Source of the DNA: an uncultured Thermotogae bacterium
GTDB taxonomy: Bacteria; Bipolaricaulota; Bipolaricaulia; UBA7950; UBA9294
Reading direction: 5' to 3'
Assembly (NCBI GenBank): GCA_964354815.1
Contig: CAYHBG010000001.1
Span: 10,803-74,802 of the forward strand
DNA length: 64,000 nucleotides
How positions within the stretch are numbered: position 1 is the first letter of the stretch; the number at the start of each line of letters is the position of its first letter. Below, in pieces: positions 2,621 through 59,646 of this stretch. A model generated the notes under the pieces. That model had not been told where the DNA came from. It worked only from the letters and a program-made list of their open reading frames with translations, and did no database searches. Both the position numbers and the translations under genes were made by a program.

Positions 2621-2648
2621 AGCCCCCTTGCTGTCGGAAGGGCACTCC

Positions 2649-3596
2649 ATGACCTATGACCCGCTCCAGGTTGCCACCGTCTACGCGGCCACGTTCCCGG
2701 CCCGCGACGACGTGTACAGCCGGTGGACAGACCAAGGCTGGAGGCCCGTCCGCGAGCCCCTCACCGGGGAAGTCATCCTCGCCGGACTCACGGGTACGGG
2801 CCCCAGCATCAGCGGCTACATGATCGCGCCGGGCAGCGTCTCCCACGTCCTGGCCTACGACTTCGACACCGACAACGGCTTCGAGCAGGCGTTCCAGCTC
2901 GCCCTGTTCATGGAGAAAGAGGGACTGCCGGCCTACGTCGAGACCTCACGCCGTGGGGCCCACCTCTGGTGCGTCATGGACCAGGTCAAGCCCGCCGTCG
3001 CCATCAGGGCAGCAGCCCGGGGCCTCCTCCAGGCCGCCGACCTCCCGGACCAGGACGAGCACATCGAGATCCGCCCCGGATCCGACCGTGTCGATGCCGA
3101 GTGGCACACCCACGTCAGCGGGGCGGTCGTCGGCACCGGCCTGGGCCACGCCCTGCGGCTGCCCCTGATGCCCCACCCCAAGACGGGGAAGACCGGCCGG
3201 ATGCTGCACCCCAACGGCAGCAGGCTGGGGGCCACGATGGCCGAGATCCTGCTGACGATGGAGTGGGCGTCGGCCGACAGCCTTGTCGAGTGGGGGTCTC
3301 GCTGGCGACGGCCACCTCTCACCCACCTCCCGCCCGAGTACCACAACCCACACGACTTCCCAGAGGACACCTCGACCGCGTCGGAGATCCTGCGCGAGCT
3401 CTGGGGCGTCCACAACGCGAGACCCGGAGCCAGCGTCCGCTGCCCGGCCCACGAGGACAAGATGCCATCGCTCTCGATCCTGCGGGACGACCGCCGGGCC
3501 ATCTGCAAGGCCGGCCATTGCGTCCTGAACAACAACGACCACGGCCGTGGAACCTACGAGCTCCGCAAGCTCGCACCCGTGGCCGCCAATGGCTGA
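2649..3596 (+). CDS. bifunctional DNA primase-polymerase (Prim-Pol domain) with C-terminal zinc finger
   Basis: ATG 2649 with GGAAGGG RBS; YDFDTDNG acidic motif and GAHLWC motif typical of Prim-Pol; C-terminal C-P-A-H...C-K-A-G-H-C zinc-binding cluster. Confidence 0.65.
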   Translation: MTYDPLQVATVYAATFPARDDVYSRWTDQGWRPVREPLTGEVILAGLTGTGPSISGYMIAPGSVSHVLAYDFDTDNGFEQAFQLALFMEKEGLPAYVETSRRGAHLWCVMDQVKPAVAIRAAARGLLQAADLPDQDEHIEIRPGSDRVDAEWHTHVSGAVVGTGLGHALRLPLMPHPKTGKTGRMLHPNGSRLGATMAEILLTMEWASADSLVEWGSRWRRPPLTHLPPEYHNPHDFPEDTSTASEILRELWGVHNARPGASVRCPAHEDKMPSLSILRDDRRAICKAGHCVLNNNDHGRGTYELRKLAPVAANG

Positions 3597-4896
3597 CAGG
3601 TGGCAGTTCGAGAAGCTCGGGATGGGCTACCGGTGCTGGAGTGACGCCAGCCAGACGGAGTTCCACCTCACCCACCTCAAGCGCAGCAGGGGAGACCTCC
3701 AGGGGGAGCTCTCGGTCTCCACCAACCTCGCGGCAGCGAAGACCCACAAGGGTGTCCTCCACGTCGCCCGCTTCAACGTCCTCTCCTCGACCTCCCGCTC
3801 CAGCCTCGCCAAGATGCTGGAGAAGCGCACCCCGGGCATGGACATGGACTGGTTCGACGGCCTCGAGTGGCTGTGCCAGAACGTCATCCTGTCGGAGACG
3901 CAGGGGGAGCCGATCAGCGAGGTGGGCACGGCGGCCCCGACACCGCCGGGGCACCAGTACATGGTCGAGCCCCTGATCCTAAAGGGCCGGCCGGCGCTCC
4001 TCTTCGGTCCCGGCGGAGTAGGCAAGAGCCTGCTCGCGCTGACGTGCGGCCTGTCCGTGGCCTGCGGCCGGGAGATCATCCCCGGCATCGCTCCGTCGGT
4101 CCACGCACCCGTCCTGTACCTCGACTGGGAAACGACCCACGACGTGATCAACGACAGGATCGTCGCCATCTCCCAGGGGCACGGCTTCAAGCCCCAGAAC
4201 ATGTTCTACCGCCGCTGTGTCCGGCCCCTGGCCGACGACGCGGAGGAGCTCTCGGCCGTCGTCGCCCAGAAGGGCATCAAGCTCGTCATCGTGGACTCGG
4301 CCGCCTACGCGATGGGGGCCCAGGGCGAGTACGGGGACGCCAACGAGGCGGTGCTCCGAATGCACGAGGCGCTGCGCCTCATCGGGGTGACCAGCCAGAT
4401 CGTCGATCACGTCAACAAGACCGACGCACGCGGAAAGGGCGGCACCGCCACCCCCTACGGCAGCGCCTACAAGACCAACGCCGCCCGCATCTCGTGGGAG
4501 GTCCGCAAGGCACCCTCCGCGAATGGCCTGGCGATCAACCTGTACCACGCCAAGAGCAACGACACCCGCCTCCTGGCACCCATCGGCCTCTCGCTGGACT
4601 GGGAGCAGGACAGCATCACCTTCCGCTCGATGGAGGTGGTCGAGGAGGAGGAGACCTCGCGCAGCGACAAGACGGCGGCGGAGATGATCCTCGAGGTGAT
4701 GGCCGGCGGAGACCATTGGAAGCTCCAGACCATCGCCGAGATGCTGCCCGACATCAAGTACGACACCGTCAAGCACAAGGTGTCCGACCTCGTCAGGATG
4801 GGGAAGCTCTTCAAGGACCCAGACGGCCTCTTCTACGTTCCCCCCAAGCCCGGGATCATGCTCCGCAGCATCAACACGAGGGCCCTCGATGCCTGA
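3589..4896 (+). CDS. RecA-fold replicative helicase / AAA_25 (RepA-DnaB-like) ATPase
   Basis: ATG 3589 overlaps the primase stop (ATGGCTGA); Walker A GPGGVGKS, Walker B LVIVDSAAY; C-terminal winged-helix-like tail; immediately downstream of the primase gene. Confidence 0.65.
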   Translation: MADRWQFEKLGMGYRCWSDASQTEFHLTHLKRSRGDLQGELSVSTNLAAAKTHKGVLHVARFNVLSSTSRSSLAKMLEKRTPGMDMDWFDGLEWLCQNVILSETQGEPISEVGTAAPTPPGHQYMVEPLILKGRPALLFGPGGVGKSLLALTCGLSVACGREIIPGIAPSVHAPVLYLDWETTHDVINDRIVAISQGHGFKPQNMFYRRCVRPLADDAEELSAVVAQKGIKLVIVDSAAYAMGAQGEYGDANEAVLRMHEALRLIGVTSQIVDHVNKTDARGKGGTATPYGSAYKTNAARISWEVRKAPSANGLAINLYHAKSNDTRLLAPIGLSLDWEQDSITFRSMEVVEEEETSRSDKTAAEMILEVMAGGDHWKLQTIAEMLPDIKYDTVKHKVSDLVRMGKLFKDPDGLFYVPPKPGIMLRSINTRALDA

Positions 4897-4918
4897 TGTT
4901 CGGAACATTCCAGGCGCA

Positions 4919-5124
4919 GGGGACACCTCGTCCCCAAGTGTCCCCTGGGGACGGTGTCCCGAGGGGGCTCTGAAAGGGCTTCGCAGACATGTCGGAGGGG
5001 ACACCTAATGGGCCATTCTGAGATCAAGGGGACACCAGGGGACACCATCCCCTACTGTCCCCTCGCCCCCACCAGGGGACAGGGGACGGGGACACCCCCC
5101 CCTATAAGGGGTGTCCCTGTCCCC
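4919..5124. repeat. cluster of >=11 GGGGACA(CC)/TGTCCCC iteron-like half-sites in both orientations (candidate origin or multi-operator region)
   Basis: Copies at about 4919, 4938(inv), 4947-4960(palindrome), 4997, 5028, 5038 (tandem 10-bp period), 5056(inv), 5075, 5083, 5088, 5108-5124(inv pair); TATAAG at 5103; non-coding stretch between helicase and HNH genes. Confidence 0.6.
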
Positions 5125-5156
5125 TGCCTCATGGGCCGTCCCGGAAAGAGTCCCGT

Positions 5157-5513
5157 ATGACGACCTCCATCCCGAAGAGAGTGAGGGAGGCTGTCCTCCG
5201 ACGTGACGGCTATCGCTGCATCGCCCCCCAGATCGACGGCCTCTCCGGCTGGTGCCGTGATGCGTGGGGCAACGTCATCACCCATTGGCCCGGCAGGGAC
5301 ACAGGGCCCGTGTACCTCCAGATGTCGCACACCAAGGAGCAGGGCGAGCTGGCGATGAGCCAGAAGGCGGACTCCGACATCGAGCACCTCGTCACCCTCT
5401 GCCCGTTCCACCACACCGGCACCACCGCCGGCTCTAACTGGGAGGCCGTGAACCGGAACAGGATCAGGCACTTCCTCGACGACCTCTACCGCCCTTCGAG
5501 GAGAAGGCCGTGA
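5157..5513 (+). CDS. HNH endonuclease
   Basis: C-x-x-C...H-x-x-x...C-P-F-H-H arrangement (RDGYRCIAP...HTKEQG...HLVTLCPFHH) in 118 aa. Confidence 0.7.
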   Translation: MTTSIPKRVREAVLRRDGYRCIAPQIDGLSGWCRDAWGNVITHWPGRDTGPVYLQMSHTKEQGELAMSQKADSDIEHLVTLCPFHHTGTTAGSNWEAVNRNRIRHFLDDLYRPSRRRP

Positions 5514-5671
5514 AGCACGTCCGTATCGGGGTCCTCTTCGCGGCCGGCGTCATCGGTGCCGGCGTCGTCTGGCAGTTGCTGGGACCGATGGCCGCGCCAA
5601 CCATCGCCCTGGCCCTTGTTGGCGGCGTTATCTTGGCGGTAATCGACTACATCACCGAGAAGGAGACCTAG
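5510..5671 (+). CDS. small membrane protein (53 aa, two predicted TM helices)
   Basis: GTG 5510 overlapping the HNH stop; VKHVRIGVLFAAGVIGAGVVWQLLGPMAAPTIALALVGGVILAV; followed by GGAG RBS for the next gene; below the ORF-track length cutoff. Confidence 0.35.
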   Translation: MKHVRIGVLFAAGVIGAGVVWQLLGPMAAPTIALALVGGVILAVIDYITEKET

Positions 5672-6481
5672 ATGGCCGTCTACAGGCCAGAGTTCGTCAA
5701 GCAATGGAACGACCCCACCACCACCCTCGACTGGAAGAACTGCACGATGGCAGCCGGGGCGATGGCGCTGGACTTCGACACCCTGGGTCACGTCCAGGTG
5801 CTGGGTGGGCAGCTCCGCAGCGTGTCCGGCGACAAGATCGGAGGGACCGGCCTTGGTAGCCCCGGCCTGACGAGGGCCTGGGCCCACTACGGCCAGGAGC
5901 TCCATGTCGAGAGCGGTGACGATTGGGCGGCGGTCATGGCCGCCCTCCGGGCGTACCGGGGCGTCGTCCTCCAGGGCATGTACGGGGCACTTCCCAAGGA
6001 GTACCGCAGCCCTCTCAACAGCCTCTCCTACCGGGGCCCTCACGGCGTCTACCTGACTCCCGAGATCAACGGCTCGGGATCCATCCTCATGGGCGATCCG
6101 CTCAACGGGAAGTTCATCTGGGTTCCGGCGGGCTACCTCCACAACTTCGCGTCCGCCCTCGGAGCTGTCGAGTACCACTCCTCGAGCAAGCTGTTCTTCG
6201 CGACCAGCGACCCCCACAAGCCGGTCGTCACCGACCCGGTGAAGTACGCCCACACCGTGGTCGTGACCGCCGATCCGTACCTGAACATTCGCGAGACCCC
6301 TTCCGCCGGGGCCAAGGACGTGGGCAACCTCAAGAAGGGGGCCAAGATCAAGACGACCTGGCTGCGCCGTCAGGGTGGCCGGTACATCGTCAATGGCACC
6401 ATGCGGACCGACTGGCTCGGCTTCACCCATGACGGTGAGACCGACTGGATCGCTCGCGCCTACACGAAGGTGGTCATCTGA
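5672..6481 (+). CDS. putative papain-like/CHAP-like cysteine peptidase with C-terminal SH3b domain (candidate cell-wall hydrolase)
   Basis: Cys24 (WKNCTMAAGAM) and His ~124 (GPHGVYL) spaced as in Cys-His peptidases; C-terminal YLNIRETPSAGAKDVGNLKKGAKIKTT...GETDWIARAYTKV resembles bacterial SH3b. Confidence 0.4.
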   Translation: MAVYRPEFVKQWNDPTTTLDWKNCTMAAGAMALDFDTLGHVQVLGGQLRSVSGDKIGGTGLGSPGLTRAWAHYGQELHVESGDDWAAVMAALRAYRGVVLQGMYGALPKEYRSPLNSLSYRGPHGVYLTPEINGSGSILMGDPLNGKFIWVPAGYLHNFASALGAVEYHSSSKLFFATSDPHKPVVTDPVKYAHTVVVTADPYLNIRETPSAGAKDVGNLKKGAKIKTTWLRRQGGRYIVNGTMRTDWLGFTHDGETDWIARAYTKVVI

Positions 6482-6482
6482 C

Positions 6483-6710
6483 ATGGACGTGACCTGGATC
6501 AAGATCGACTCCTGGCACATTCTCGAGGGGACCTGGGTCGAGGGGGCCGTGACGGTCGCCACCACCCGCTGCGGCATCACGCGCCCCTGGGACGGGACGA
6601 GCCTCGACCGCCTCCCCGGTGGGACCGAGACCTCCTGCGAGAACTGCCTCAAGTACAAGCTGGGCGAGCTCGACGAGCCGCCCAAGAAGAGGGCCCGCAA
6701 GGCCAAGTGA
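6483..6710 (+). CDS. small zinc-ribbon protein with basic tail
   Basis: ATG 6483; TTRCGIT...SCENC (CxxC-type pair); KKRARKAK C-terminus. Confidence 0.4.
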   Translation: MDVTWIKIDSWHILEGTWVEGAVTVATTRCGITRPWDGTSLDRLPGGTETSCENCLKYKLGELDEPPKKRARKAK

Positions 6711-10561: not shown

Positions 10562-12160
10562 ATGGGCAAGCTCGCCACGCGGCCGAAGGCCGCACCGAAG
10601 GCCGCGATCCGCTCCACGAAGGGGCGGAAGCCGGACACCAAGACCTTCAACTCTGGTGCCGGGTTCAGCCGCGAGCCGAAGTCGGAGCTGTACCTCCTGG
10701 CCGTGACGAACATGGTCAGCGAGAAGACGTTCTACGAGTCCGCCGAGACTCGTGACCGCCGGTTCAACGACCTCATCCGCCAAGTGGCGCTCGAGGATCC
10801 CGACTGGCTGGCGCGGTTCGTGCCGTACCTCCGCGACACCATGAACATGCGGACGGCCTCCATCGTGATGGCGGCCGAGACGGTCCACGCGAAGCTGACC
10901 AAGCCGGTCCCCGCGTCCACGATCAAGAACCGGACGATCATCGACTCCGCCATCAAGCGGGCCGACGAGCCGGCGGAGATGCTGGGCTACTGGTTCAGCG
11001 AGTGGGGCAAGAACCTCCCGCAGCCGGTGAAGCGCGGCGTGGCCGACGCGGTCCAGCGCCTGTATGGCGAGCGCAGCCTCATCAAGTACGACGGCGGCGA
11101 CAAGGCCATCCGGTTCGCGGATGTGATCGACCTCGTCCACCCGGAGGCGAAGGCCCCCTGGCAGTCGGCCCTGTTCAAGTACGCCCTCGATGACCGCCAC
11201 AAGCGGGAGAACCCGCTGCCCGGCGACCTCGCCATGATCGGTCTCAACCGTCTGGCGATGGGCCTCGGTGACGTTGCGTTCCGGGAGGCGTTCGGACCCT
11301 CGTTCGTGGAGCACGCCGGCCTCACCTGGGAGCAGGCGAGCTCGAAGTACGGCAAGCTCGACGCCCGGTTCTGGGAGGCGATGATCCCCTCGATGGGCAT
11401 CTTCGCCATCGTGCGGAACCTCCGCAACTTCGACGACGCGAAGATCAGCAACGCCGCCCAGGACCTGGTGCGGGCCAAGCTGACCGATGCCGAGACCATC
11501 GCCAAGAGCCGGATGTTCCCGCTCCGCTTCTTCACCGCCTTCCTGGCGACGAAGACGCTGACCTACGCCCGCGAGCTCGAGACCGCCATCGACCTGTCGC
11601 TGGCGAACGTGCCCAGCCTCAAGGGCAAGACGCTGATCCTCGTGGACATCAGCCGGTCGATGGACTGGGCGCTGTCCGCGAAGAGCGACGTGGTCCGGCT
11701 GGCCCCGGCCAGCATCTTCGGCGCGGCGCTCGCGGTCCGGGCGGAGAAGCCGACCCTCGTCGCCTTCACCGACACGAGCGTGGAGATCCACGTCCGCAAG
11801 GGCCAGAGCATCCTGCTCGCGACCAAGGAGATCGCGAACGCCCTGCCCCATCAGGGCACCCAGACCTTCCAGGCGGTGAAGCGCCACTTCAACAGTCACG
11901 ACCGCGTGATCATCATCACCGACGAGCAGGCTGACCCCTCGACGGCCTGGGGCTTCGGGGTGCGGGACACGTCCGACGTGGACCCGTCCGCGATCCTGCC
12001 CGAGACGGTGCCGCTGTTCACCTTCAACGTCGCGGGCTATGCCGCCGGCCACGCGCCGTCGGGGAAGCGCAACCGCTACGCCTTCGGCGGGCTGAACGAC
12101 TCCGCCTTCACCGCCATCGAGCTCCTCGAGAAGGGGCGCGACCAGACCTGGCCCTTCTGA
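10562..12160 (+). CDS. rsr: Ro60-related protein (Rsr): TROVE domain plus C-terminal von Willebrand A domain
   Basis: 532 aa; alpha-helical N-terminal region (FYESAETRDRRFNDLIRQVALEDPDWLARFVPYLRDTMNMRTASIV) typical of TROVE; vWA MIDAS motif LILVDISRSMDW about aa 357; Ro60 orthologs are typically adjacent to Y RNA genes. Confidence 0.7.
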   Translation: MGKLATRPKAAPKAAIRSTKGRKPDTKTFNSGAGFSREPKSELYLLAVTNMVSEKTFYESAETRDRRFNDLIRQVALEDPDWLARFVPYLRDTMNMRTASIVMAAETVHAKLTKPVPASTIKNRTIIDSAIKRADEPAEMLGYWFSEWGKNLPQPVKRGVADAVQRLYGERSLIKYDGGDKAIRFADVIDLVHPEAKAPWQSALFKYALDDRHKRENPLPGDLAMIGLNRLAMGLGDVAFREAFGPSFVEHAGLTWEQASSKYGKLDARFWEAMIPSMGIFAIVRNLRNFDDAKISNAAQDLVRAKLTDAETIAKSRMFPLRFFTAFLATKTLTYARELETAIDLSLANVPSLKGKTLILVDISRSMDWALSAKSDVVRLAPASIFGAALAVRAEKPTLVAFTDTSVEIHVRKGQSILLATKEIANALPHQGTQTFQAVKRHFNSHDRVIIITDEQADPSTAWGFGVRDTSDVDPSAILPETVPLFTFNVAGYAAGHAPSGKRNRYAFGGLNDSAFTAIELLEKGRDQTWPF

Positions 12161-23453: not shown

Positions 23454-26400
23454 CTACACCGCCGGGGAGCGGAGACCGAGCATCTGGCCCTTCTTCGCGA
23501 GGACGCGCTCAACCTCGTGGGCCACGGCACGAGCCAGGTGCGAGATGTCCTGCTCGCCGCGAACCACGGGGCCGTTGATGTTCACGGTCACGCTGGAGGG
23601 ACCGCCGCCGAACCCGCCGCCCACATCCACCGAACGGGGGTTGCGGAGGATGGCAACCGCCTCGTCTCCCGCCTCGCCCATGATGGCGCGGGTCTTGCCC
23701 TTCGCCATGCCGACAATGCCGGCGGCGTGCGCGATGGTCGGAGCGGTGACGCTCGTCCCGGTCCTCGTCTTCTGGAACGAGAAGCCAAGAGCCTCGAGGA
23801 ACGACCGCATCCCGGTGGATGCCCCGCCGACGTAGTCGCCGAGCGTGGAAAGGTCAGCGTTCGCCTGCTTGATCGTGCCGCCGAACGTGTCGGCGTACTG
23901 CGCCGCCAGGTCCTGGGCGATGGAGTACTTGTTCATCGCGGTGTTGTAGATATCGTCCGCCTTGCCGAGATCGGTAGCGATCTGGGTGTTGAGGGCCGCG
24001 ATGGCGGCCTGGGCCGCCGCCGTCTCGACCTCCGCCGTGTGGGCGGCCTGAGAGGCGGCCCATGCAGCCTGGGCGTCCTGAAGGTTCCGCTGGGCCTGGA
24101 TCTTCCACTCCTCGCCGGTCCCGGCGTAGGACTCCTTGGCATAGCCCAGCTTCTGCTGGCCGATGCCGGCGGTGATGATCGCCTCCTTCTGGCGCATGTA
24201 CCGCTCTTCGCCCGTCTCGCCGGGAGCCTGGAACTGGGCGATGGCGAGCTGGGTCGTGATCTGCCGCTGCTGGAGGGCGAGGTCGAGCGCCTGGCTGGCG
24301 CGGCCGATCTGCCAGAGGTGCCGCTGGAGCTTGCCAAGGGCGGACCCTCCGGCCTGGCCCAGCATGCCGGCCGCGTCCGCGATGCCACGCAGGGCCAGGC
24401 GGGTCGTGTTGGCCCAACTCGCCTGAGAGGCGGTGGCGGACAACTCACCGATCTGACTCTGGAGGTTGGCGACCTCACGACTCGCGTCTTGCGCCGAGGT
24501 CATCAGGCCCTTGTAGCGATCAGCATTGGCCTGGCCGGACGTGGGGAGCATCTGCTTCCCGAACTGGCCTTCACCGAGGGACACCGTCTGCATCGTGCCC
24601 GGACCGGGCTGGCTCTGGATCTCCGCGTAGGCCTTGTCGATGGCCTTCTGGTTGTCGATCTCCTGTGCGACCTGAAGCTCGGTGGCGCGAGCCATGTACC
24701 CGGCCGCCTCCGCTGCGGCTCCCTTGGACAGGCCCATGCCGCCGCCGAACGTGGGCGTTCCGCCCTTGCCGAACTTGACCGTGGGCTTGCCGCTCAGGAT
24801 CTGCTGGTACTCGTCGGTCGCCATGCCCTTGGCCCAGTCGGACCAGCCCTGCTGGTTGCCGAACGAGGCCCCGGCCCTGGTCCGCTGCTTCTGCCAGTAC
24901 GAGATACCAGCCGCCCCCGGCACGACCCCCGATCCGGCGGGGAGATACGGACTCTGGATCCGCTGCATCGCCTGGTTGAGCGGGATCGTCAGGGTCTGGG
25001 TGATCATGCTCGCGATGTCGAGGCGCTCGAACTGCACCGCGACCTTGCGCTCCATCGTCTTGCCCCACTCCGCCGCGTCGGGGATCGTGAGGCCGGTCGT
25101 CCAGTCCTTGAGCGCCTTGTCGATGGTGTTGAAGTCCGTGATGATCTTGCCGGTAGCATCCGTGAAGGCGTACCCGGTGTTCATCAGGTTCTTGACCATC
25201 TGGGGCAGCGCGGCAGCGGCGGGACTCTTGCCCGCATCACGCGCCTCCTGCCCCCGGTACGCCATCGTGGGTCCGGCCGCAGCCCCGACCCGCTTCTGGG
25301 CGCGGGTCATCGCGGCGTTCGTGGAGTCGGTGATGGCGAGTTCGGCATCCATCATCGAGTTGAACTTCTGGGAGACCTCGTTCCAGTTGCCGAACTCCGT
25401 CGGGGAGTAGTACATCTCCTGGACGTTCTTCGGCCGCAGAGCCGGCTCGCCGCCCGGTGTCTGGTTCAGGATGTCCCCGACGATGGCACCGATGCCGCCG
25501 GCGGCAGCACCGCCGACAGCGCCTGCGCCGACGCCGAACGGGGTGGCCGACCACGCCCCGAGACCAGCTCCGGCAGCAGCCCCGGCACCGGCAGCGCCGA
25601 TGTAGCGCCCGATGCCGGTGTCGCCACGGCTGGCCCGGATGGTGTTGACCAACTCCTCGACCGCGCCAGACCCGCCGCCGAACTGGGTCCCGAACAGGGG
25701 TCCGCCCATGACGCCGCCGTAGCCGCCATAAAGGCCCTGGGCCCCACCCTGCATGCTGGCGGCGGCCAGGATCTGGTCCGACGCCTCGGACCACGCCTTG
25801 CCGCCAGCCTTGGCGACGACGGACGCCTTGAGGGCATCTTCCACCCAGCTCCCGACGGAAAGCGAGAGACCAGCCGTCGCAGCCGTTCCAGCGATGGCGG
25901 CCTGGTAGTTACCACCCTGCTGGCGCGTCTGATCAGCGAGGGCGTTCGTGACCTTGGTGGCCGTCGGAGCCATGCCCATCATCACGTCGCCGACACGCTG
26001 CATGGCCGGTAGGGCAGCCTCGTCAATGATCTTCGACGCAGCCTGCATCGCCATGCCGTAGAGGCTGGTCGAGCCAATGATCACGCCCAGGTTGCGGAGC
26101 ACGCCGCCCGTGGTGGGCATCGTCTTCTTGGTGGCGGCATCTAGCTCCTTCTGGTATTGCCTCTCGGCCTGAACCAGCGGCTTGATGGTCTCGCTGTTCT
26201 TCTTCCTGGCCCCCTCGAGCTCCTTCTCCGCGTCGGCTCGTTCGGGCGTTCCCTCCCCGTACTTATCGACCTCGGAGCGGTAGGCATTCAGGTTCGCCAC
26301 GCCCTTCTGGATGGCGTATCCGGTGCGGTTGTGCGCCTGGGTGTACGCCTTCTCCGCCTGGGCGCGGGCGACCATCGCCCGGTCGTATCCCTGGACGCCG

Positions 26401-38711: not shown

Positions 38712-40013
38712 CTACTGGCCTTTCTTCAGGAGGATGAGGAACTCCTCGCCGTAGACCGACTTCAGGCTCTCGAACTGCTCGTTCGCCTGGCGGACCGTGG
38801 CGCGGCGTCCGACTGGGGTTCGGGACAGGCGACCCAGGATCTCGGCCGTGTTCTTGATGACCTTCTCGGTCACCTCGATGGCCCGATCCCGTTCCGTGAT
38901 CGCGTCGTCCAGGTCCTTCTTCGTGGTGATCAGCTCGCGGGTGATCGCCTTCAGGAGGTCGCTGGAGGTCCGCAGGGAGGCCACGACGGTAGGCTCCAGG
39001 ATCTGGAGCGCCGACTCGACTTCCTCGGTCTCGGTGGGTGCGCTGGAGAGGCCGATGGCTGCCCACGGGTTCACGGGCAGGCTCTCGTCCTCGTCCCCAT
39101 CCTCGGTCTCAGGGGCGCTCGCCAGAGCTTCCTGCGAGGAGCCGCTCGCGGGGGCCTTCTGGCTCCCGCGTCCGGTGTCGATGGAAACGTCCGCATACGG
39201 TGTCTTGATGTTCACCGTCGCGTTCGTGATGGGCGGGGCGACGGTGAACGTCGCCGTCGCCCCGCTGGATGTGGTGGTGGTACTCGCAAGGACCGGCTCG
39301 CCGGGGGCGTCACCCTCGGAGGGTGTCTCAACGACCTCGGGGTCGGCTTCGCCGTCCTCGGGCGGATCATCGGCATGCTCGAGGGTCTCGGCATCGAGCT
39401 CCTTGACGATCTCGGTCGCCTCCTCCGCCGCGTATTCCACGACCTGACCGACCTCGCCGTCGCTCCTCACGCCGAGACCGGCGGGGGCATCGGGATCAGC
39501 CCACGAGACGTTGAGGGACTTCACGGCGTACTCGACCCAGGACCTGGGGTTCGCCGGCACGCCGACGAGGGAGGTCTCGAGGAGCTCGACGTGTTCGATC
39601 TGGTAGGTGCCCGTCTTCCGGTCGCGGCTCGCGCCTCCGTCGGGGATCATCGCCCCGATGGAGAGGCCGAGTTGGGTCCCGCCGTCGATGGCCTCCCACG
39701 CCTTCACGGCGCGGGGGTTGCTCTGGTTGACCACGATGTCCATCGACAGGTCCTTGATCGAGGGGTCCATCGGGTGGGATCGGAGCAGCGCCCGGTCCAC
39801 ATACCCGGCCACGTCCTCGGGGACCTGGTACTCGTGGTTGAGGAAGATCGTCAGATGGTTGTTGGCGCTGCGCTCCATGTCGTCCAGCGCCGAGGTGAGC
39901 ATCACATGCCCCTGGCGGTCCTTGACGGTGGAGCTCGCGATGCCGTGGAGCATCATCCGGTCGCCGTCCATGCTCGCCTTGAGCATCGGCGCGAAGATCT
40001 TGAAGGTGTTCAT
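38712..40013 (-). CDS. prohead serine protease (HK97 gp4 family) fused to an acidic coiled-coil scaffold domain
   Basis: N-terminal ~180 aa with MLHGIASSTVKDRQGHVM and LETSLVGVPANPRSWV motifs of HK97-family proteases; C-terminal 250 aa acidic/helical (scaffold-like); ATGA overlap with the upstream GT4 gene. Confidence 0.65.
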   Translation of the reverse strand: MNTFKIFAPMLKASMDGDRMMLHGIASSTVKDRQGHVMLTSALDDMERSANNHLTIFLNHEYQVPEDVAGYVDRALLRSHPMDPSIKDLSMDIVVNQSNPRAVKAWEAIDGGTQLGLSIGAMIPDGGASRDRKTGTYQIEHVELLETSLVGVPANPRSWVEYAVKSLNVSWADPDAPAGLGVRSDGEVGQVVEYAAEEATEIVKELDAETLEHADDPPEDGEADPEVVETPSEGDAPGEPVLASTTTTSSGATATFTVAPPITNATVNIKTPYADVSIDTGRGSQKAPASGSSQEALASAPETEDGDEDESLPVNPWAAIGLSSAPTETEEVESALQILEPTVVASLRTSSDLLKAITRELITTKKDLDDAITERDRAIEVTEKVIKNTAEILGRLSRTPVGRRATVRQANEQFESLKSVYGEEFLILLKKGQ

Positions 40014-41278
40014 GCGGAAGCCTCCGGCGCTTCAGTACCCACGGGAGGCTCGAAACTGGCGAGCGCCGTGATGTACTCGTCGAACTTGCTGGCCGCGAAG
40101 TCCCAGGTGAAGGTCTTCGCGTGAGCGGCACCCGCTAGACCGAGGTCCCGGCGCAGCCCCTTGGACATGTACAGGCGCTCGATGGCGGCGGTGAACGCCG
40201 GGATGTCGGGCAGCCAGTTGTCGTCGCCAGAGGGCTTCGTGAGGAAATACCCGCTCGGCTCAACGAGGATCCCGCCGGGTCCGACCACCTCGGGGATGGC
40301 GGACACGTTCTGGGCCACGATGGGGATGCCGCACGCGGCGGCCTCGAGGAGGGTCAGGCCGAAGCCCTCTCCCCGTGAGGTGGAGACGAAGCAGTCGAAG
40401 GCGGAGTAGAGGACGTTGAGGTCCTCGATGGCCCAGCCCTCGAAGCTGGTGTGGAGGCCGGGGAAGTGGAACCGCTCCGGGTTCACCTTCTCCGCGTTGC
40501 GGCCCAGCATCGCCTTGAACCGCACCCCCACCGACGGACCCTCGTCCTCGCAATGGAAGTGAACGTCGATGTTGGAGTACTTCTCCATCAGGGGCCAGAG
40601 CGCCTTCACGAGCGCCGGGTAGTCCTTCCGGCCGCTGTTGGTGTCCACCCGCCCGACAAGGAAGCGGTCGGGGTCGTAGCCGAACGCCCTCTTGGCGTCA
40701 GCCCTGGTCCTGCATACGATCCCCGTGCTGGTGGTCTTGGGCTTCTCCCAGATCGGCCAGAACATCTCGTGGTCCAGGCCGTGGTAGACGAGCTTGCTGG
40801 GCTCGTACAGCGACTGCCCCCACTTGCTCATGGCGACGGTGTTCGCCACCTTGGGCATCACGGTCGTCCAGCGGGGCGGGAGGTTCATCGAGTCCACGGG
40901 GACGTACCACAGGATCGGGCGGTACTGGAGGAGCATCTTCGCCGGGTCGAACTGGTCGTTGTCGAACAGGTAGCGGAGGGCGATCTGCGGGTCGTTCAGC
41001 ATCACCACCACGTCCGGCTCGACCTTGCCCAGCATCTCGAGGACCCGGCTGAAGCCGAACATGTCGCCCGCCGCGACGGTGTTGGGGCGGTACAGACGGA
41101 GGGGTGTGACGTGATCGTGCCCGGGTCGTTCGCAGTCCCACGAGTCCCCTCGGTAGTTGACTGCCACAACATGGAGCTCGTGGCCGTACTCCTCGACCAG
41201 TCGTTCGCCAATGGCGTGTGTGACGCGGCTGAAACCTGTCGTGCAGCCTGCGTCCGAGAACCAGAGAACCTTCGCCAC
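40010..41278 (-). CDS. glycosyltransferase family 4 (GT-B fold)
   Basis: STSRGEGFGLTLLEAAACGIPIVA is a textbook GT4 E-x7-E motif region; 422 aa; GTG start 41278. Confidence 0.7.
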   Translation of the reverse strand: MAKVLWFSDAGCTTGFSRVTHAIGERLVEEYGHELHVVAVNYRGDSWDCERPGHDHVTPLRLYRPNTVAAGDMFGFSRVLEMLGKVEPDVVVMLNDPQIALRYLFDNDQFDPAKMLLQYRPILWYVPVDSMNLPPRWTTVMPKVANTVAMSKWGQSLYEPSKLVYHGLDHEMFWPIWEKPKTTSTGIVCRTRADAKRAFGYDPDRFLVGRVDTNSGRKDYPALVKALWPLMEKYSNIDVHFHCEDEGPSVGVRFKAMLGRNAEKVNPERFHFPGLHTSFEGWAIEDLNVLYSAFDCFVSTSRGEGFGLTLLEAAACGIPIVAQNVSAIPEVVGPGGILVEPSGYFLTKPSGDDNWLPDIPAFTAAIERLYMSKGLRRDLGLAGAAHAKTFTWDFAASKFDEYITALASFEPPVGTEAPEASA

Positions 41279-56084: not shown

Positions 56085-57491
56085 CTAGGACCGCTCGATC
56101 AGGCCCTTGGCGATGTCGTCCCGGCGCTCCATGTACCCCCTCACGAGGGCCTCAAGCTCGGGCGACATGTCCTTGGTGCTGCTGGCGGGCTTCGACTGTC
56201 CAGCCGCCGGAGCGGGCGGAGGAGTGGCGACCTCCTTGGCGGAGAGAACGTCATCGACGGTCACGACGCCGAGGGGAGTGTTCGCCATGAGCTTGTTGTA
56301 CGGGTTGTTCTCGTCGTTGGGGTCCCCCAGCGGAGGCCGACCCTCGTCCATCCGGGCCTCGTTGACTGGCTTCCAAGGCATGCCTGCGAGCGCCAACTTG
56401 TTGATGTTGGCCTTGGACATGGACTCCTTGATGTTCAGCCGCGTGAACCTGAAGGCGAGGTTGTTGCGGTTCCCTCCGTAGGCGTCGTCCCAGACGATCT
56501 CCCGTGTGAAGTAGTCCTGCACGAGCGCCAGAAGTGGCCGGAGACCCTGGTCCTCGGTCATCTCGAGCTGACTCTCAGCGGTGGCCCGGTTGATGTCCAT
56601 CGTGATGCCCAGGTCCTGCGGTGAGATCAGGTAGACCGCGCAGATCTTGAGGACGAGGTACTTGAGCCACTCCTGGTACTGCATCTCTCGGTTGCTGCCA
56701 CGGAACGGGACGAACTTCGCCCCCTTCGTGCCACCGATGAAGGCCATCGCCCCCTTGCCGGCCACCTCGTACTGCCAGTACGACTTGAAGCCCTCGACCT
56801 GTTCCGGCCGAGCGCCCTCGCCCAGGTCAAGCATCCCGTCGGGGGCAGCGTTGGTGACCTGGCGGGTGTTGTACTGGGAGCCGGTCAGCTCCGCGTCCAC
56901 GGTCATCTTGAGGGTCTCGAGGGGAGACAGGCCGACGACCGAGTACGTCCTGGGGTTCGCCATGATGTAGACGATGTCCTCGTTCTTGAACGGGACCTCG
57001 TAGGTGGGGGTGGGGACCCAGAAGTAGCGTGGCTCGTCAGGATCACCGTCCCACAGGGAGTTGACCTTGATCTTGGCCCCGTCCACCGCGTGGAGGGCGG
57101 CCAGGCTGCCGCCGAGGGTGCGCTCCTTCTCGATGCTGCCGGCGTCGAGGACCAGGATGTCCTCCACGATGGGTTCGACCCAGGAACGGAAGGACTCCAC
57201 CGCCGGATTGGGGCGGATGAACAGGTCGCGGAGCTCCTCCTGCATCGCCTCGTTGAAGGGCTTCGCCTGGTCGAAGGGGACGATGTCCCACTCCGCCGAG
57301 GAGACCTGGGCCTTGCGGACGTTGATCGCGGCCCGGATCCACTCCGAGTGCTCGGCCCAGTTGCGGAACAGGGCACTCGAGCTCTTGCCGACCTTCCCCC
57401 GCTCCTGGAAGACCAGGTTGGCGCTCCCCGGCGGGAGGTTCTTGGGGCTGGTCTTGTAGGACCACGTCAGGAGGTTGGAGATCAGGCCCAT
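56085..57491 (-). CDS. portal protein
   Basis: 468 aa directly downstream of TerL (with a 71-aa gene between them); typical portal size and position; ATG 57491. Confidence 0.75.
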   Translation of the reverse strand: MGLISNLLTWSYKTSPKNLPPGSANLVFQERGKVGKSSSALFRNWAEHSEWIRAAINVRKAQVSSAEWDIVPFDQAKPFNEAMQEELRDLFIRPNPAVESFRSWVEPIVEDILVLDAGSIEKERTLGGSLAALHAVDGAKIKVNSLWDGDPDEPRYFWVPTPTYEVPFKNEDIVYIMANPRTYSVVGLSPLETLKMTVDAELTGSQYNTRQVTNAAPDGMLDLGEGARPEQVEGFKSYWQYEVAGKGAMAFIGGTKGAKFVPFRGSNREMQYQEWLKYLVLKICAVYLISPQDLGITMDINRATAESQLEMTEDQGLRPLLALVQDYFTREIVWDDAYGGNRNNLAFRFTRLNIKESMSKANINKLALAGMPWKPVNEARMDEGRPPLGDPNDENNPYNKLMANTPLGVVTVDDVLSAKEVATPPPAPAAGQSKPASSTKDMSPELEALVRGYMERRDDIAKGLIERS

Positions 57492-57706
57492 CAGCGGAGC
57501 TCCCGAAAGTGCGCCGCAAGAAGATGGTCTTGCTGGGCGTTGAGGAAGTTGGACTCCTGCTGCTTGTTCCCGGCCTCGATGGCCTCCTCGTAGGTGAGGC
57601 GGTGGGTGTCGATCCCGGCCAGGATCACGGCGAGGTATGCAGGGACCTGGCGCTTCCCGTCTCGGAACTCGTATTCGATCCAGGGCTGTCCCAGGTCTAG
57701 CATCAT
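57491..57706 (-). CDS. small hypothetical protein (71 aa) between terminase and portal
   Basis: ATG 57706; ATGA overlap with the portal start; ORF-track N-terminus is an over-extension. Confidence 0.35.
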   Translation of the reverse strand: MMLDLGQPWIEYEFRDGKRQVPAYLAVILAGIDTHRLTYEEAIEAGNKQQESNFLNAQQDHLLAAHFRELR

Positions 57707-57710
57707 CACC

Positions 57711-59213
57711 TCAAGCTGCTGCTCGGACGCTGCCGAAGAAGAACGTGTCGCCACCCATGTCCATCGAGTACCCGAGGGAGTCCACGAAGTCGTCGTGCCC
57801 CTTGTGGAAGGACAGCAGCTCGACCTCGAAGGCCGTGCCACGCAGGGAGGCGTGGTGGAGGACCTTGTGCCCCTCGTACTTGGCGGCGACGGCCCGACCA
57901 CGGGTGACCTTGTCGCCATCCGCCGGCTTCCCCTCGATGGGGATGCGGGGGTAGTCCTCCATGACCTCCTGGATCAGGGTGGACTGGAACTGGACCTTCT
58001 CGACGAGAACCAGGCTGATGCTGGGGTAGGCCATCCAGCCGTCGTAGACGAACTCGGCATGATGACTCTCGCGCTTGTCGCGGTAGGCGGAGAGGACGTA
58101 GAACATGCCCCGCAGCATGCAGCCGCTCTGGCACACGTCCTCGGCGGTCGTCACGCGGGCGGTGAAGTCGGCCCTTTCCTTGGTCGAGCTCGCCAGGTCC
58201 ACGCCCATGCGGATCGTGTACTGGTGCCCCTCGGGAAGGGTCGTGAAGTGCTCGAACGGGCCGTGGAAGATGTTGCCCTCGAGCAGGCCCGAGATGTCGT
58301 TCTGGTAGGAGCACGAGAAGAGGGCCGACCCCATCTCCTCCTTCTCCTTGAGCAGCCGGTCCACCGACCAGTACTCCGGCCAGTAGCTGTGAAGCTGCCC
58401 CCGCTCGTCTTCGGTCAGAGCGGACACGACGTGGCTCTTCCACCCGAAGCCCCCGTCGTAGGTGGGCTTCATGAACTGCTCGTAGAGGTCTTCCTCGCCC
58501 CACCTGGTGCCGATCACGACGACCACGCCGTCGGGGGCCAGGCAGGGCTTGAGGGTCTTCTTGAACCAGACCTCGACATCCTCACGCTGGTCCACGCTCT
58601 GCGTGTTCTCCTCGTCGAGGATGTCGTCCATGAGGATGAGGTCGAACCGCTTGCTGATGATCGCGCCGCCGACCCCGACGGCGAACAGCGTCACGTCCTT
58701 GCTGCCCAGCCACCTCGAGCCGGCGCAGAGCCACTCCTTGTCGGTCCACTTGGCGGCCGACGGCTTCGACTCCGGGAAGACGAGCCTGTGGGCGCTGTTC
58801 TGCTCGACGGTGTACTTGATCGCCCGGCTGAAGTCCTTGGCCTGGGTGTCGGTGTTGGACACCATCCCGATGCGGATGTCGGGGTACTTGCCGACCAGCC
58901 AGGAGCACAGGATCGTGTTGTCCCAGGTGGTCTTGGCCCCGCCCCGGGGAAGGAGGTAGACCTCGTGCTCTCGGTAGAGGATCGACTCGAGCGTCTCCGC
59001 GACCATGTCGCGGTGATGCTGGGCGGGGATGTAGCCGAAGACGAGCTCGCCGTAGGCGAAGACGGCGTCCGGGCCGTCAGTTCTCGCCAGTTCGACTAAG
59101 GCGAGGGATCGGAGATCGTTCAGCGTTCGAGGGGGCAAGCCCTCGAGTTGCTTCAACAATGCCTCGAAGAAGGTCGGTTCCGACTGCTCCAGAGGCAGAT
59201 AGGCTGACACCAA
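57711..59213 (-). CDS. terminase large subunit
   Basis: Walker A variant LLPRGGAKTT, Walker B-like DLILMDD, C-terminal RNaseH-like nuclease region (GVDLASS...D); 500 aa. Confidence 0.8.
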   Translation of the reverse strand: MVSAYLPLEQSEPTFFEALLKQLEGLPPRTLNDLRSLALVELARTDGPDAVFAYGELVFGYIPAQHHRDMVAETLESILYREHEVYLLPRGGAKTTWDNTILCSWLVGKYPDIRIGMVSNTDTQAKDFSRAIKYTVEQNSAHRLVFPESKPSAAKWTDKEWLCAGSRWLGSKDVTLFAVGVGGAIISKRFDLILMDDILDEENTQSVDQREDVEVWFKKTLKPCLAPDGVVVVIGTRWGEEDLYEQFMKPTYDGGFGWKSHVVSALTEDERGQLHSYWPEYWSVDRLLKEKEEMGSALFSCSYQNDISGLLEGNIFHGPFEHFTTLPEGHQYTIRMGVDLASSTKERADFTARVTTAEDVCQSGCMLRGMFYVLSAYRDKRESHHAEFVYDGWMAYPSISLVLVEKVQFQSTLIQEVMEDYPRIPIEGKPADGDKVTRGRAVAAKYEGHKVLHHASLRGTAFEVELLSFHKGHDDFVDSLGYSMDMGGDTFFFGSVRAAA

Positions 59214-59646
59214 GGGAACGCTCCTCCGTGATGTTCGACGGGTGGCCGAACAGGACGTTCAGGCGGTCGATGAGGATGGCGATGTCCTGGGGCCGCACGA
59301 CGACAACGGTCTCCTCGACCCAGTCGTTGTTCCGCATCACCATCCGGGTGGCCTTCATGTCGGCCCGCATCTTCGTGATCGCCTCGTCGATGGCCTCGAT
59401 GGCGTTGTCGCGGACGCGCATCTCCTGGGCCCGTCGCATCCCCTCGGCGTCGGCCATGTAGACCACGGCCTTCTCGGACGCCCCACGGCGATATTCGTCA
59501 CGCTTCCGCACCCACTCCCGGGCCTTGCTCTGGGCCACGACGACGGAGTGGTTGGAGATGCCGTGGGAGCGGGCGAGCTCCCGCAGCCCCATGTCCCCGG
59601 TGACGTATTCGCGCTCAAGGAGGGCGTAGTCGTGCTTCGTGTTCAC
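59077..59646 (-). CDS. terminase small subunit (HTH N-terminus), 3' end overlapping terL
   Basis: GTG 59646 in GTGA overlap with the upstream gene; MGLRELARSHGISNHSV helix-turn-helix; position immediately upstream of TerL; about 136-nt overlap with the annotated TerL start. Confidence 0.5.
   Translation of the reverse strand: MNTKHDYALLEREYVTGDMGLRELARSHGISNHSVVVAQSKAREWVRKRDEYRRGASEKAVVYMADAEGMRRAQEMRVRDNAIEAIDEAITKMRADMKATRMVMRNNDWVEETVVVVRPQDIAILIDRLNVLFGHPSNITEERSLGVSLSASGAVGTDLLRGIVEATRGLAPSNAERSPIPRLSRTGEN

What the first reader, a model, noticed from the sequence alone, without database searches (positions are those of the whole stretch)
4919..5124. Dense cluster of GGGGACA(CC)/TGTCCCC repeats between the helicase and an HNH gene: candidate origin or operator array
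At least eleven copies of a 7-9-bp motif in both orientations lie within 200 bp. They include a 10-bp-phased tandem pair (5028, 5038) and two inverted pairs (4947-4960, 5108-5124), plus a TATAAG element. The cluster lies directly after the primase-helicase replication genes. This architecture is typical of iteron-type replication origins or of multi-site operator regions bound by a phage regulator.
Basis: seen in the sequence. Interest (0 to 1): 0.6.

Follow-up and report, generated by a model that had tools for sequence, protein, structure and literature searches.

The report
Phage replication origin: helicase-matched iteron array
The repeat cluster is real and is most likely this uncultured phage's replication origin: short repeats placed just after the helicase gene, matching a DNA-binding domain at the helicase's own tail, a known design seen here with a different type of helicase.

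Summary
Nine of the window's 24 GGGGACA copies and all five GGGGACACC copies lie in 4918-5125, against 0.05 expected. No other 210-bp stretch holds more than two.

The cluster fills the 260-bp gap between a RepA-like, RecA-fold helicase (3589-4896) and a small conserved Cys/His gene (5157-5513). About 30 distinct metagenomic relatives have the same layout at the same place, each with its own 6-7-mer. The layout is scattered words, then tandem words converging on a short A/T-centred dyad.

The word tracks the helicase's hypervariable C-terminal winged-helix domain, not the helicase core, the primase or the downstream gene. L026 and L027 have 99% identical cores, 49% identical C-terminal domains and different words. 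Two relatives were predicted from their recognition helix to carry TGCAAC, and both do.

The best reading is an iteron origin bound by a self-loading initiator-helicase. It works like SaPI Rep-ori or phage P4 alpha, but those use SF3 helicases, so this is a new variant of a known kind. All evidence is computational; neither binding nor origin firing was tested.

The parts
2628..3596 (+). Archaeo-eukaryotic-type primase (AEP) gene, directly upstream of and overlapping the helicase gene
   Evidence: Pfam AEP-TOTE PF22548, E = 1.5e-11. NCBIfam PrimPol type, E = 5.7e-8. Same position in all relatives.
3589..4896 (+). RepA-like, RecA-fold (AAA_25) helicase of 435 aa; proposed initiator-helicase
   Evidence: Pfam AAA_25, E = 2e-20. 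Closest PDB sequence is RSF1010 RepA 1G8Y, E = 1e-4. AlphaFold model pLDDT 93. Foldseek top hits are Rad51, KaiC and DnaB. Identical protein P0001 lies on a 76.6-kb contig.
4675..4845 (+). Coding region for the hypervariable C-terminal winged-helix domain of the helicase (residues 363-419)
4759..4797 (+). Predicted recognition helix H3 (YDTVKHKVSDLVR, residues 391-403)
   Evidence: Third helix of the winged-helix model. Its sequence tracks the repeat word across loci. It correctly predicted the word in L084 and L086.
4918..5125 (.). Whole iteron array; proposed origin of replication
   Evidence: Eleven sites within 2 mismatches of AGGGGACACC and 14 GGGAC cores. P about 5e-18 for GGGGACA.
4918..4962 (.). 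Distal iteron group. Strong sites: 4918-4927 (+, exact), 4937-4946 (-, 1 mismatch), 4953-4962 (-, 2 mismatches). Weak GGGGAC cores at 4930-4935 (-) and 4947-4952 (+).
4996..5005 (+). Single exact iteron AGGGGACACC
5027..5046 (+). Two exact iterons in tandem, 10 bp start to start
   Evidence: (family D1). The same pair is conserved in L004.
5054..5063 (-). Iteron in minus orientation (AGGGGACAGT, 2 mismatches)
5074..5098 (+). Left arm of the central dyad: three tandem iterons (5074-5083, 5081-5090, 5087-5096) running into a C-run
   Evidence: (I1).
5099..5107 (.). Dyad centre CCCCTATAA, with TATAAG at 5103-5108. It is the locally least G+C-rich spot and the proposed first melting site.
   Evidence: The 5099-5108 segment has 50% G+C against 72-79% in the two arms. 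It forms the loop of the 19-pair hairpin. Relatives have an A/T-rich core at the same place, for example TTATAG, CTAAAG, TTTAAAA, CTTAAGG.
5108..5126 (-). Right arm of the central dyad: G-run plus two tandem inverted iterons (5110-5119, 5116-5125)
5157..5513 (+). Conserved 118-aa Cys/His protein gene that bounds the array. It serves as the control gene and is not part of the specificity pair.
   Evidence: Present downstream in most relatives. It stays 82-88% identical between loci whose words differ. No family match.

Best explanation
The 4918-5125 cluster is an iteron array that serves as the phage's origin of replication. It is recognised by the winged-helix domain at the C-terminus of the helicase encoded immediately upstream.

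Proposed steps:
1. Helicase subunits dock through their C-terminal domains on the AGGGGACACC words.
2. The tandem words that converge on the dyad (three on the left arm, two on the right) position two helicase assemblies head-on across the short A/T-centred core CCCCTATAAGG.
3. The duplex is melted there, or the dyad is extruded as a hairpin or cruciform.
4. The RecA-fold rings load without a separate loader.
5. The adjacent AEP primase primes the exposed strands.
6. The scattered upstream words raise local helicase concentration or add cooperativity.

What is shown (computationally): the clustering; the conserved layout across relatives; the winged-helix fold of the C-terminal domain; and the co-variation of that domain with the word.

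What is inferred: binding itself, double-hexamer loading, melting at the dyad centre, and use of this site as the origin.
For: 1. Clustering. GGGGACA occurs 9 times against 0.05 expected, all 5 GGGGACACC copies are inside, and no other cluster exists in 64 kb.

2. Conserved place and layout.
- In about 30 distinct relatives with 44-81% identical helicase cores, the gap right after the helicase stop holds a locus-specific 6-7-mer in 4-15 copies.
- Each array ends in an inverted repeat built from those words around a short A/T-rich centre.
- Homologues at 24-40% identity show a word cluster at the same place.

4. Co-variation.
- Separating same-word from different-word pairs gives AUC 0.98 for the C-terminal domain, 0.87 for the core, 0.82 for the downstream gene and 0.78 for the primase.
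- With near-identical loci removed, the values are 0.96 against 0.72-0.77.
- Partial Mantel test: word against C-terminal domain given core, r = 0.17, p = 0.026. Word against core given C-terminal domain, r = 0.03, p = 0.38.
- Module swaps: L026/L027 have 99% core identity, 49% C-terminal-domain identity and different words. L024/L036 have 92% core, 20% C-terminal domain, 82% downstream gene, 85% primase and different words.
- The relation looks graded in examples read from the word lists. Domains about 50% identical go with words one base apart: GGGGACA/GGGAACA, TCTAACC/TGTAACC, TGTAAC/TGTCAC.

5. Blind prediction. P0017 and P0031 carry the helix motif TVRSNLSRM and were predicted to have TGCAAC words. 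Both do.

6. No competing binder. There is no second copy of the domain in the window.

7. Precedent. SaPI Rep helicases use a C-terminal winged helix to bind 6-12 iterons immediately downstream of rep. Those arrays have an AT-rich centre and at least two oppositely oriented iterons on each side (PMC9371898; see also PMC7581432).
Against: - No experiment has been done. Binding, melting and origin activity are all inferred.
- The C-terminal-domain coding region abuts the repeats, so some co-variation could come from physical linkage in recombination tracts. The equally adjacent downstream gene does not co-vary, which argues against linkage alone.
- The partial Mantel effect is modest (r = 0.17), because most locus pairs have unrelated words.
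- The A/T-rich core is only 4-10 bp, far shorter than classical unwinding elements.
- Cumulative GC skew turns near 13-14 kb, where gene orientation flips, not at 5 kb. Skew gives no support here, although it follows transcription direction in this genome.
- The strong hairpin could also act as an RNA-level terminator of the replication operon.
Confidence: 0.75

Rival explanations
1. The array is a helicase-binding site used mainly for gene control rather than as the origin. In this reading it autoregulates or terminates the replication operon, or gates expression of the downstream genes. The central hairpin acts as an intrinsic terminator or an RNA stabiliser.
For: - The array lies between co-oriented genes.
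- The 19-pair dyad is very stable (-27.8 kcal/mol, z = -5.1).
- A strong dyad is present in every relative.
- Initiators often also autoregulate (established knowledge of iteron plasmids).
Against: - No T-tract terminator or sigma-70 promoter consensus was found.
- Words also occur well outside the hairpin and in both orientations.
- A terminator would not need to change its sequence together with a DNA-binding domain.
- This role is compatible with an origin function rather than an alternative to it.
Confidence: 0.12
2. The array is an operator bound by a separate phage regulator, such as a repressor or activator encoded elsewhere. Its co-variation with the helicase tail would then be a by-product of linkage.
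For: - Multi-site arrays in both orientations are typical of operators.
- The C-terminal-domain coding region is physically adjacent to the repeats.
Against: - No other protein in the 64-kb window resembles the winged-helix domain.
- The gene on the other side of the array is just as close yet stays 82-88% identical while the words change.
- The recognition helix predicted the word in two loci that had not yet been examined.
- The array sits after the helicase gene even in homologues at 24-40% identity with different neighbouring genes.
Confidence: 0.05
3. The array is a packaging (pac/cos) site or a partition (centromere-like) site.
For: Both kinds of site can be arrays of short repeats.
Against: - The terminase large subunit (57711-59258) and portal (56085-57710) genes are about 51-53 kb away.
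- No partition genes flank the array.
- The array's constant partner across relatives is the helicase gene.
Confidence: 0.02
4. The cluster is a chance or compositional artefact of G+C-rich DNA.
For: The genome is 66% G+C, and GGGGACA is not over-represented window-wide (24 against 18.8 expected).
Against: - Nine copies in 210 bp against 0.05 expected, and at most 2 in any other 210-bp stretch.
- Relatives have different words at the same place, several of them A/T-containing, such as TGTATACA and TCTAACC.
Confidence: 0.01

Closest known systems
SaPI (Staphylococcus aureus pathogenicity island) Rep-ori self-loading helicase system, and the related SCCmec Cch2
   Same: - The initiator and the helicase are one protein.
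- A C-terminal winged helix reads short (5-6 nt) iterons.
- Six to twelve iterons lie immediately downstream of the helicase gene.
- An AT-rich centre has oppositely oriented iterons on each side.
- A primase gene is adjacent.
- Each element has its own specificity (PMC9371898, PMC7581432).
   Different: - SaPI Rep and Cch2 belong to the SF3/AAA+ clade. The protein here has a RecA fold (AAA_25, RSF1010 RepA-like).
- The centre here is a 4-10-bp A/T core inside a G+C-rich perfect dyad, not a long AT-rich tract.
- The element is a roughly 76-kb lytic-type phage genome of high G+C content, not a satellite island.
Phage P4 alpha protein with its ori and crr (from my own knowledge, not tested here)
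   Same: A primase-helicase with a C-terminal origin-binding winged-helix domain that recognises short repeated octamers in both orientations.
   Different: - P4 alpha is a single fused polypeptide with a different primase type and an SF3 helicase.
- P4 needs a second repeat cluster (crr). No second cluster exists in this 64-kb window.
RSF1010/IncQ RepA helicase with RepC and oriV iterons
   Same: The helicase core is the closest solved homologue (1G8Y). Replication in that system starts at an iteron-containing origin and uses a dedicated primase.
   Different: In RSF1010 the iterons are read by a separate initiator, RepC, which loads RepA (established knowledge). Here the DNA-reading domain is fused to the helicase, and no RepC-like gene is present in the module.
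SV40 large T antigen and papillomavirus E1 origins
   Same: Short pentamer or hexamer words arranged as inverted sets around a dyad. An origin-binding domain on the helicase reads them, leading to double-hexamer assembly. PMC7581432 draws the same analogy for SaPI.
   Different: Those are eukaryotic viral SF3 helicases with an N-terminal origin-binding domain of a different fold. There is no homology.
Classical iteron plasmids (pPS10 RepA, R6K pi, RK2 TrfA)
   Same: Winged-helix initiator domains read repeated words, and specificity pairs define incompatibility groups.
   Different: - Those iterons are 17-22 bp, direct, and phased about every 22 bp next to a long AT-rich element and DnaA boxes.
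- Those initiators have no helicase.
- Here the words are 7-10 bp, in both orientations and irregularly spaced at 6-78 bp.

Membership tests
Self-loading initiator-helicase origins of the SaPI Rep type | Helicase carries a C-terminal winged-helix DNA-binding domain | tested here: met
Self-loading initiator-helicase origins of the SaPI Rep type | Six to twelve short iterons immediately downstream of the helicase reading frame | tested here: met
   Eleven sites within 2 mismatches, starting 22 bp after the stop codon. The same placement is seen in relatives.
Self-loading initiator-helicase origins of the SaPI Rep type | AT-rich centre with at least two oppositely oriented iterons on each side | tested here: met
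   Three plus-orientation and two minus-orientation iterons flank CCCCTATAAGG. The A/T core is only 4-10 bp, much shorter than in SaPIs.
Self-loading initiator-helicase origins of the SaPI Rep type | Helicase belongs to the SF3/AAA+ clade and is homologous to Rep | tested here: not met
   Pfam AAA_25. RSF1010 RepA is the closest PDB sequence. Foldseek top hits are Rad51, KaiC and DnaB.
Self-loading initiator-helicase origins of the SaPI Rep type | Element-specific pairing of the C-terminal domain with its iterons | tested here: met
   Co-variation statistics and module swaps. Blind prediction confirmed.
Self-loading initiator-helicase origins of the SaPI Rep type | Specific binding, ATP-independent melting, and origin activity | not testable with these tools
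   Needs gel-shift, footprinting and replication assays.
RSF1010 RepA-type (AAA_25, SF4-like) helicases | RecA-fold ATPase core with Walker A and B motifs, homologous to RepA | tested here: met
   AAA_25, E = 2e-20. 1G8Y, E = 1e-4. Invariant GPGGxGKS and D236-S237.
RSF1010 RepA-type (AAA_25, SF4-like) helicases | Loaded by a separate iteron-binding initiator (RepC) | tested here: not met
   No such gene was found in the replication module. The DNA-binding domain is fused to the helicase.
Classical plasmid iteron origins | Direct 17-22-bp iterons in helical phase beside a long AT-rich element | tested here: not met
   Words of 7-10 bp, in both orientations, with spacings of 6-78 bp. No long AT-rich tract: the lowest-G+C segments are 50-55%.
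Phage P4 alpha origin | A second cis-acting repeat cluster (crr) in addition to ori | tested here: not met
   No other 210-bp stretch of the window holds more than 2 GGGGACA copies. About 12.6 kb of the 76.6-kb genome lies outside the window and was not seen.

The most novel reading that the evidence does not exclude
These loci may define a widespread, undescribed class of self-loading RecA-fold (RepA/AAA_25) replicative helicases in uncultured high-G+C phages and related elements. In this class, origin recognition is done by a fused C-terminal winged helix. The winged helix and the adjacent iteron array travel together as a swappable specificity cassette. The roughly 20 natural helix-to-word pairs found here would then amount to a ready-made recognition table for this domain.
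Probability: 0.55. Interest if true: 0.6.

Novelty: new variant of a known kind. Interest (0 to 1): 0.5.

Why it matters
Origins of replication are unmapped for nearly all high-G+C phages and for uncultured phages in general. This finding gives a specific, testable origin for a whole family that is known only from metagenomes.

- It suggests that the 'initiator fused to helicase, iterons just downstream' design, so far characterised for SF3 helicases of satellites and small viruses, also arose on a RecA-fold, RepA-type helicase.
- The natural swaps of winged helix plus iterons explain how related phages could keep separate replication specificities.
- Those swaps also supply matched protein-DNA pairs for studying or engineering winged-helix recognition and orthogonal replicons.

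The idea itself is not new, so the value lies in extending a known principle and in its testability, not in a surprise.

Tried and rejected
- **Close relatives among cultured phages.** Megablast of 3500-6500 found nothing. A protein search found only Gordonia phage Sour, at 28.7% identity over 39% of the query. No annotated relative exists.
- **IMG/VR scan with the single helicase.** No confirmed relative.
- **Exact look-up of the 449-aa reading frame.** Not on record. The gene starts at the ATG at 3589, giving 435 aa (P0001).
- **tRNA and Rfam scans of the window.** Nothing found, so the region is not a known RNA gene.
- **Promoter and terminator consensus scan.** Nothing found. Reading TATAAG as a -10 box was rejected because it sits at a dyad centre, and relatives carry palindromic A/T cores there.
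- **GC skew as an origin predictor.** Uninformative, because the skew follows gene orientation.
- **A conserved GGCC box on both sides of the dyad.** It looked promising in L002, L003, L024 and L036 but is present in only 6 of 28 loci on the left and 10 of 28 on the right. It is clade-specific and was dropped.
- **Family assignment of the downstream 'HNH' gene.** No match in Pfam, PHROGs, NCBIfam or a PDB profile search.
- **Genome collection scan for a host.** It gave only distant homologues (at most 40% identity) in metagenome bins of Dormibacterota and others. The host remains unknown.
- **Literature.** Searches for this helicase family together with iterons found no prior description.

Full report
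**1. The observation**

- GGGGACA occurs 24 times in the 64-kb window, on both strands. This is no more than shuffles give (18.8 +/- 4). Nine of the copies fall in 4919-5124.
- All five exact GGGGACACC copies are there.
- The full repeat unit is the 10-mer AGGGGACACC, with four exact copies and one at 90% identity.
- Eleven sites match it with at most two mismatches between 4918 and 5125.
- Against the rate in the rest of the window, nine GGGGACA copies in 210 bp compare with 0.05 expected (Poisson P about 5e-18). No other 210-bp stretch holds more than two.

Three details need correcting.
- 5108-5124 is not an inverted pair. It is two tandem minus-orientation copies forming the right arm of a larger dyad. 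The dyad is 5080-5098 paired with 5108-5126: 19 pairs, a 9-nt loop CCCCTATAA, -27.8 kcal/mol as DNA, z = -5.1.
- TATAAG is the centre of that dyad. No promoter or terminator consensus was found.
- The downstream gene cannot be confirmed as HNH.

**2. Context**

The window is a phage genome of 66% G+C.
- It has a terminase large subunit at 57711-59258, a portal gene at 56085-57710, and a head protease or major head gene at 38712-40031.
- The replication and recombination module reads: PD-(D/E)XK nuclease (991-1728), ERF-type annealing protein (1691-2659), AEP primase (2628-3596), AAA_25 helicase (3589-4896).
- Next come the 260-bp gap that holds the repeats, and then a conserved 118-aa Cys/His protein gene (5157-5513).
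- An identical helicase (P0001) lies on a 76.6-kb NCBI metagenome contig and in a Logan assembly.
- No cultured phage is close.

**3. Relatives**

Contigs encoding helicases with 44-81% identical cores were fetched. In essentially every one, the gap right after the helicase stop holds a cluster of a short word.

The word differs from locus to locus:

| Word | Loci |
|---|---|
| GGGGACA | window, L004 |
| TGCAAC(A) | L005, L006, L012, L017, L031, L084, L086 |
| GGGAACA | L087 |
| TCTAACC | L002, L024 |
| TGTAACC | L025, L027 |
| TGTCAC | L026 |
| GTGTACA / TGTATACA | L003, L036 |
| CGTTAC | L015, L016 |
| ATGGTAC | L021 |
| GTGGACAT | L019, L022 |
| CGTAGC | L037, L039 |
| CTTGCA | L038 |
| GTTTCA | L041 |

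The layout is constant. Scattered words in both orientations come first. Then tandem words run into a short, often C-run/G-run, palindrome with an A/T-rich core (TTATAG, CTAAAG, TTTAAAA, CTTAAGG and others), mirrored by inverted words.

The window and L004 share the word and the arrangement, including the 10-bp tandem pair and the triple repeat on the left arm. Their spacers have diverged.

Homologues at only 24-40% identity also show a word cluster at the same place. These include contigs binned with Dormibacterota and Acetobacteraceae genomes.

**4. What reads the words**

The helicase alignment shows a conserved N-terminal domain and RecA-type core, an acidic linker, and then a hypervariable stretch of about 60 residues.
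- The AlphaFold model (pLDDT 93) folds that stretch as helix 363-371, helix 379-385, helix 391-403 and two short strands. This is a winged helix.
- The core is RecA-like. RSF1010 RepA is the closest solved sequence, and Rad51, KaiC and DnaB are the top structural matches.

**5. Co-variation**

Thirty-three non-identical loci were compared in pairs. The table shows how well identity in each segment separates same-word pairs from different-word pairs.

| Segment | AUC, all pairs | AUC, pairs with core identity below 0.9 |
|---|---|---|
| C-terminal domain | 0.98 | 0.96 |
| Helicase core | 0.87 | 0.77 |
| Downstream gene | 0.82 | 0.72 |
| Primase | 0.78 | 0.77 |

- A partial Mantel test gives word against C-terminal domain, controlling for core, r = 0.17, p = 0.026. 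Word against core, controlling for C-terminal domain, gives r = 0.03, p = 0.38.
- The clearest cases are module swaps:
  - L026 and L027: 99% identical cores, 49% identical C-terminal domains, different words.
  - L024 and L036: 92% core, 20% C-terminal domain, 82% downstream gene, 85% primase, different words.
  - L004 and L084: 91% core, 21% C-terminal domain, different words.
- The window and L004 have 81% core and 61% C-terminal-domain identity. Their third helices are nearly the same (YDTVKHKVSDLVR and YDTLKHKVSFLVR), and they share the word.
- The relation looks graded in examples read from the word lists. Domains about 50% identical go with words one base apart.
- A blind test also held. 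P0017 and P0031 carry the helix motif TVRSNLSRM, so TGCAAC was predicted before their contigs were read. Both have TGCAAC arrays.
- No other reading frame in the window resembles the domain.

Linkage was controlled for with the downstream gene. It is as close to the array as the C-terminal-domain coding region, yet it does not co-vary.

**6. Mechanism**

The best-supported reading is an iteron origin read by a self-loading initiator-helicase.
- The winged helices of helicase subunits bind the words.
- The convergent tandem words on both arms of the dyad place two assemblies head-on across the A/T core.
- The duplex opens there, the rings load, and the neighbouring AEP primase primes.

This matches the layout described for SaPI Rep. 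That system has a C-terminal winged helix, 6-12 iterons immediately downstream of rep, an AT-rich centre, at least two opposed iterons per side, and two hexamers (PMC9371898). PMC7581432 describes the same layout for SaPI Rep, reports specific Cch2 binding to direct repeats downstream of its own gene, and compares the logic with SV40 T antigen and papillomavirus E1.

Clustering, layout, fold and co-variation are shown here, by computation only. Binding, melting and origin use are inferred.

**7. Rivals**

- A purely regulatory or terminator role for the array is possible as an added function, but it does not explain the domain-word pairing.
- An operator for a separate regulator is disfavoured.
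- A packaging or partition site is disfavoured by position and by the constant partnership with the helicase gene.
- A compositional artefact is excluded.
- GC skew follows gene orientation and says nothing either way.

**8. Comparison and novelty**

The system works like SaPI Rep-ori and P4 alpha. It is not a member of those families, because its helicase is RecA-fold/AAA_25 rather than SF3.

Its core is homologous to RSF1010 RepA. That helicase depends on a separate iteron-binding protein, RepC (established knowledge). Here the reader domain is fused to the helicase.

The array does not fit classical plasmid iteron origins, which have long, direct, phased repeats.

Full-text searches found no description of this arrangement for this helicase family. 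The searched library is incomplete, so this absence is weak evidence.

I rate the finding as a new variant of a known kind. Its interest is moderate: the principle is familiar. The family-wide origin assignment, the natural specificity swaps and the helix-to-word table are directly testable and useful.

Noticed in passing
window 10562-12160 (+): The phage carries a Ro60/TROVE-like protein with a vWA domain (Pfam TROVE E = 6.6e-14; PHROG 850 E = 1e-51). No Y-RNA-like or tRNA-like partner was detected in the window by Rfam at gathering thresholds or by ARAGORN.
   Followed up: partly
window 23454-33044 (-): A single open frame of about 3,197 codons with coding-type GC3 lies inside the structural module. 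It is unusually long, and its function was not examined.
   Followed up: no
window 5157-5513 (+) and its homologues in L002-L087: This small protein is conserved right after the origin in most relatives. It has invariant C21, C33, H58, C82, H85 and H86 but no match in Pfam, PHROGs, NCBIfam or PDB profiles. It may be a divergent His-Me/HNH-type zinc protein. Its constant position beside the origin is unexplained.
   Followed up: partly
L037 and L039 (contig Ga0307503_10000029, 130,935 bp): Two related but non-identical helicase-plus-origin modules lie 75.3 kb apart on one contig. Both use CGTAGC words; core identity is 82% and C-terminal-domain identity 62%. This could be two related genomes joined by assembly or a tandem arrangement.
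   Followed up: no
P0027 (771 aa helicase relative); L002 1636-2055; L084 2604-2972: The replication module of relatives is invaded by mobile elements at varying places:
- an intein-type insert (PF14528) in one helicase;
- an HNH_3 gene between the nuclease and ERF genes;
- an Endonuclease_7 gene between the primase and helicase genes.
   Followed up: no
window, whole: Outside the cluster, sequences within 2 mismatches of AGGGGACACC are rarer than in dinucleotide shuffles. There are 82 in total, including 11 in the cluster, against 120.5 +/- 12 expected, and all 100 shuffles had at least 82. This could be avoidance of stray helicase sites or just coding bias.
   Followed up: no
L088, L089 (Dormibacterota bins), L093 (Acetobacteraceae bin), L046, L049-L051, L053, L059, L071, L076: Helicase homologues at only 24-40% identity also have a word cluster immediately after their stop codon, for example CGTTGC x7, GGGAAC x10, GTGGCA x11, CGTAAC x13. 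L088 and L089 also have the same C-run/TTAA/G-run dyad. The design seems to span a much wider family than the window's close relatives.
   Followed up: partly
L002, L003, L024, L025, L036 origin regions; window 5009-5014 and 5132-5137: A GGCC(C) box flanks the central dyad on both sides in one sub-clade. In the window it appears as CCTAATGGGCC and CCTCATGGGCC, 123 bp apart. It is not general: 6 of 28 loci have it on the left and 10 of 28 on the right.
   Followed up: yes
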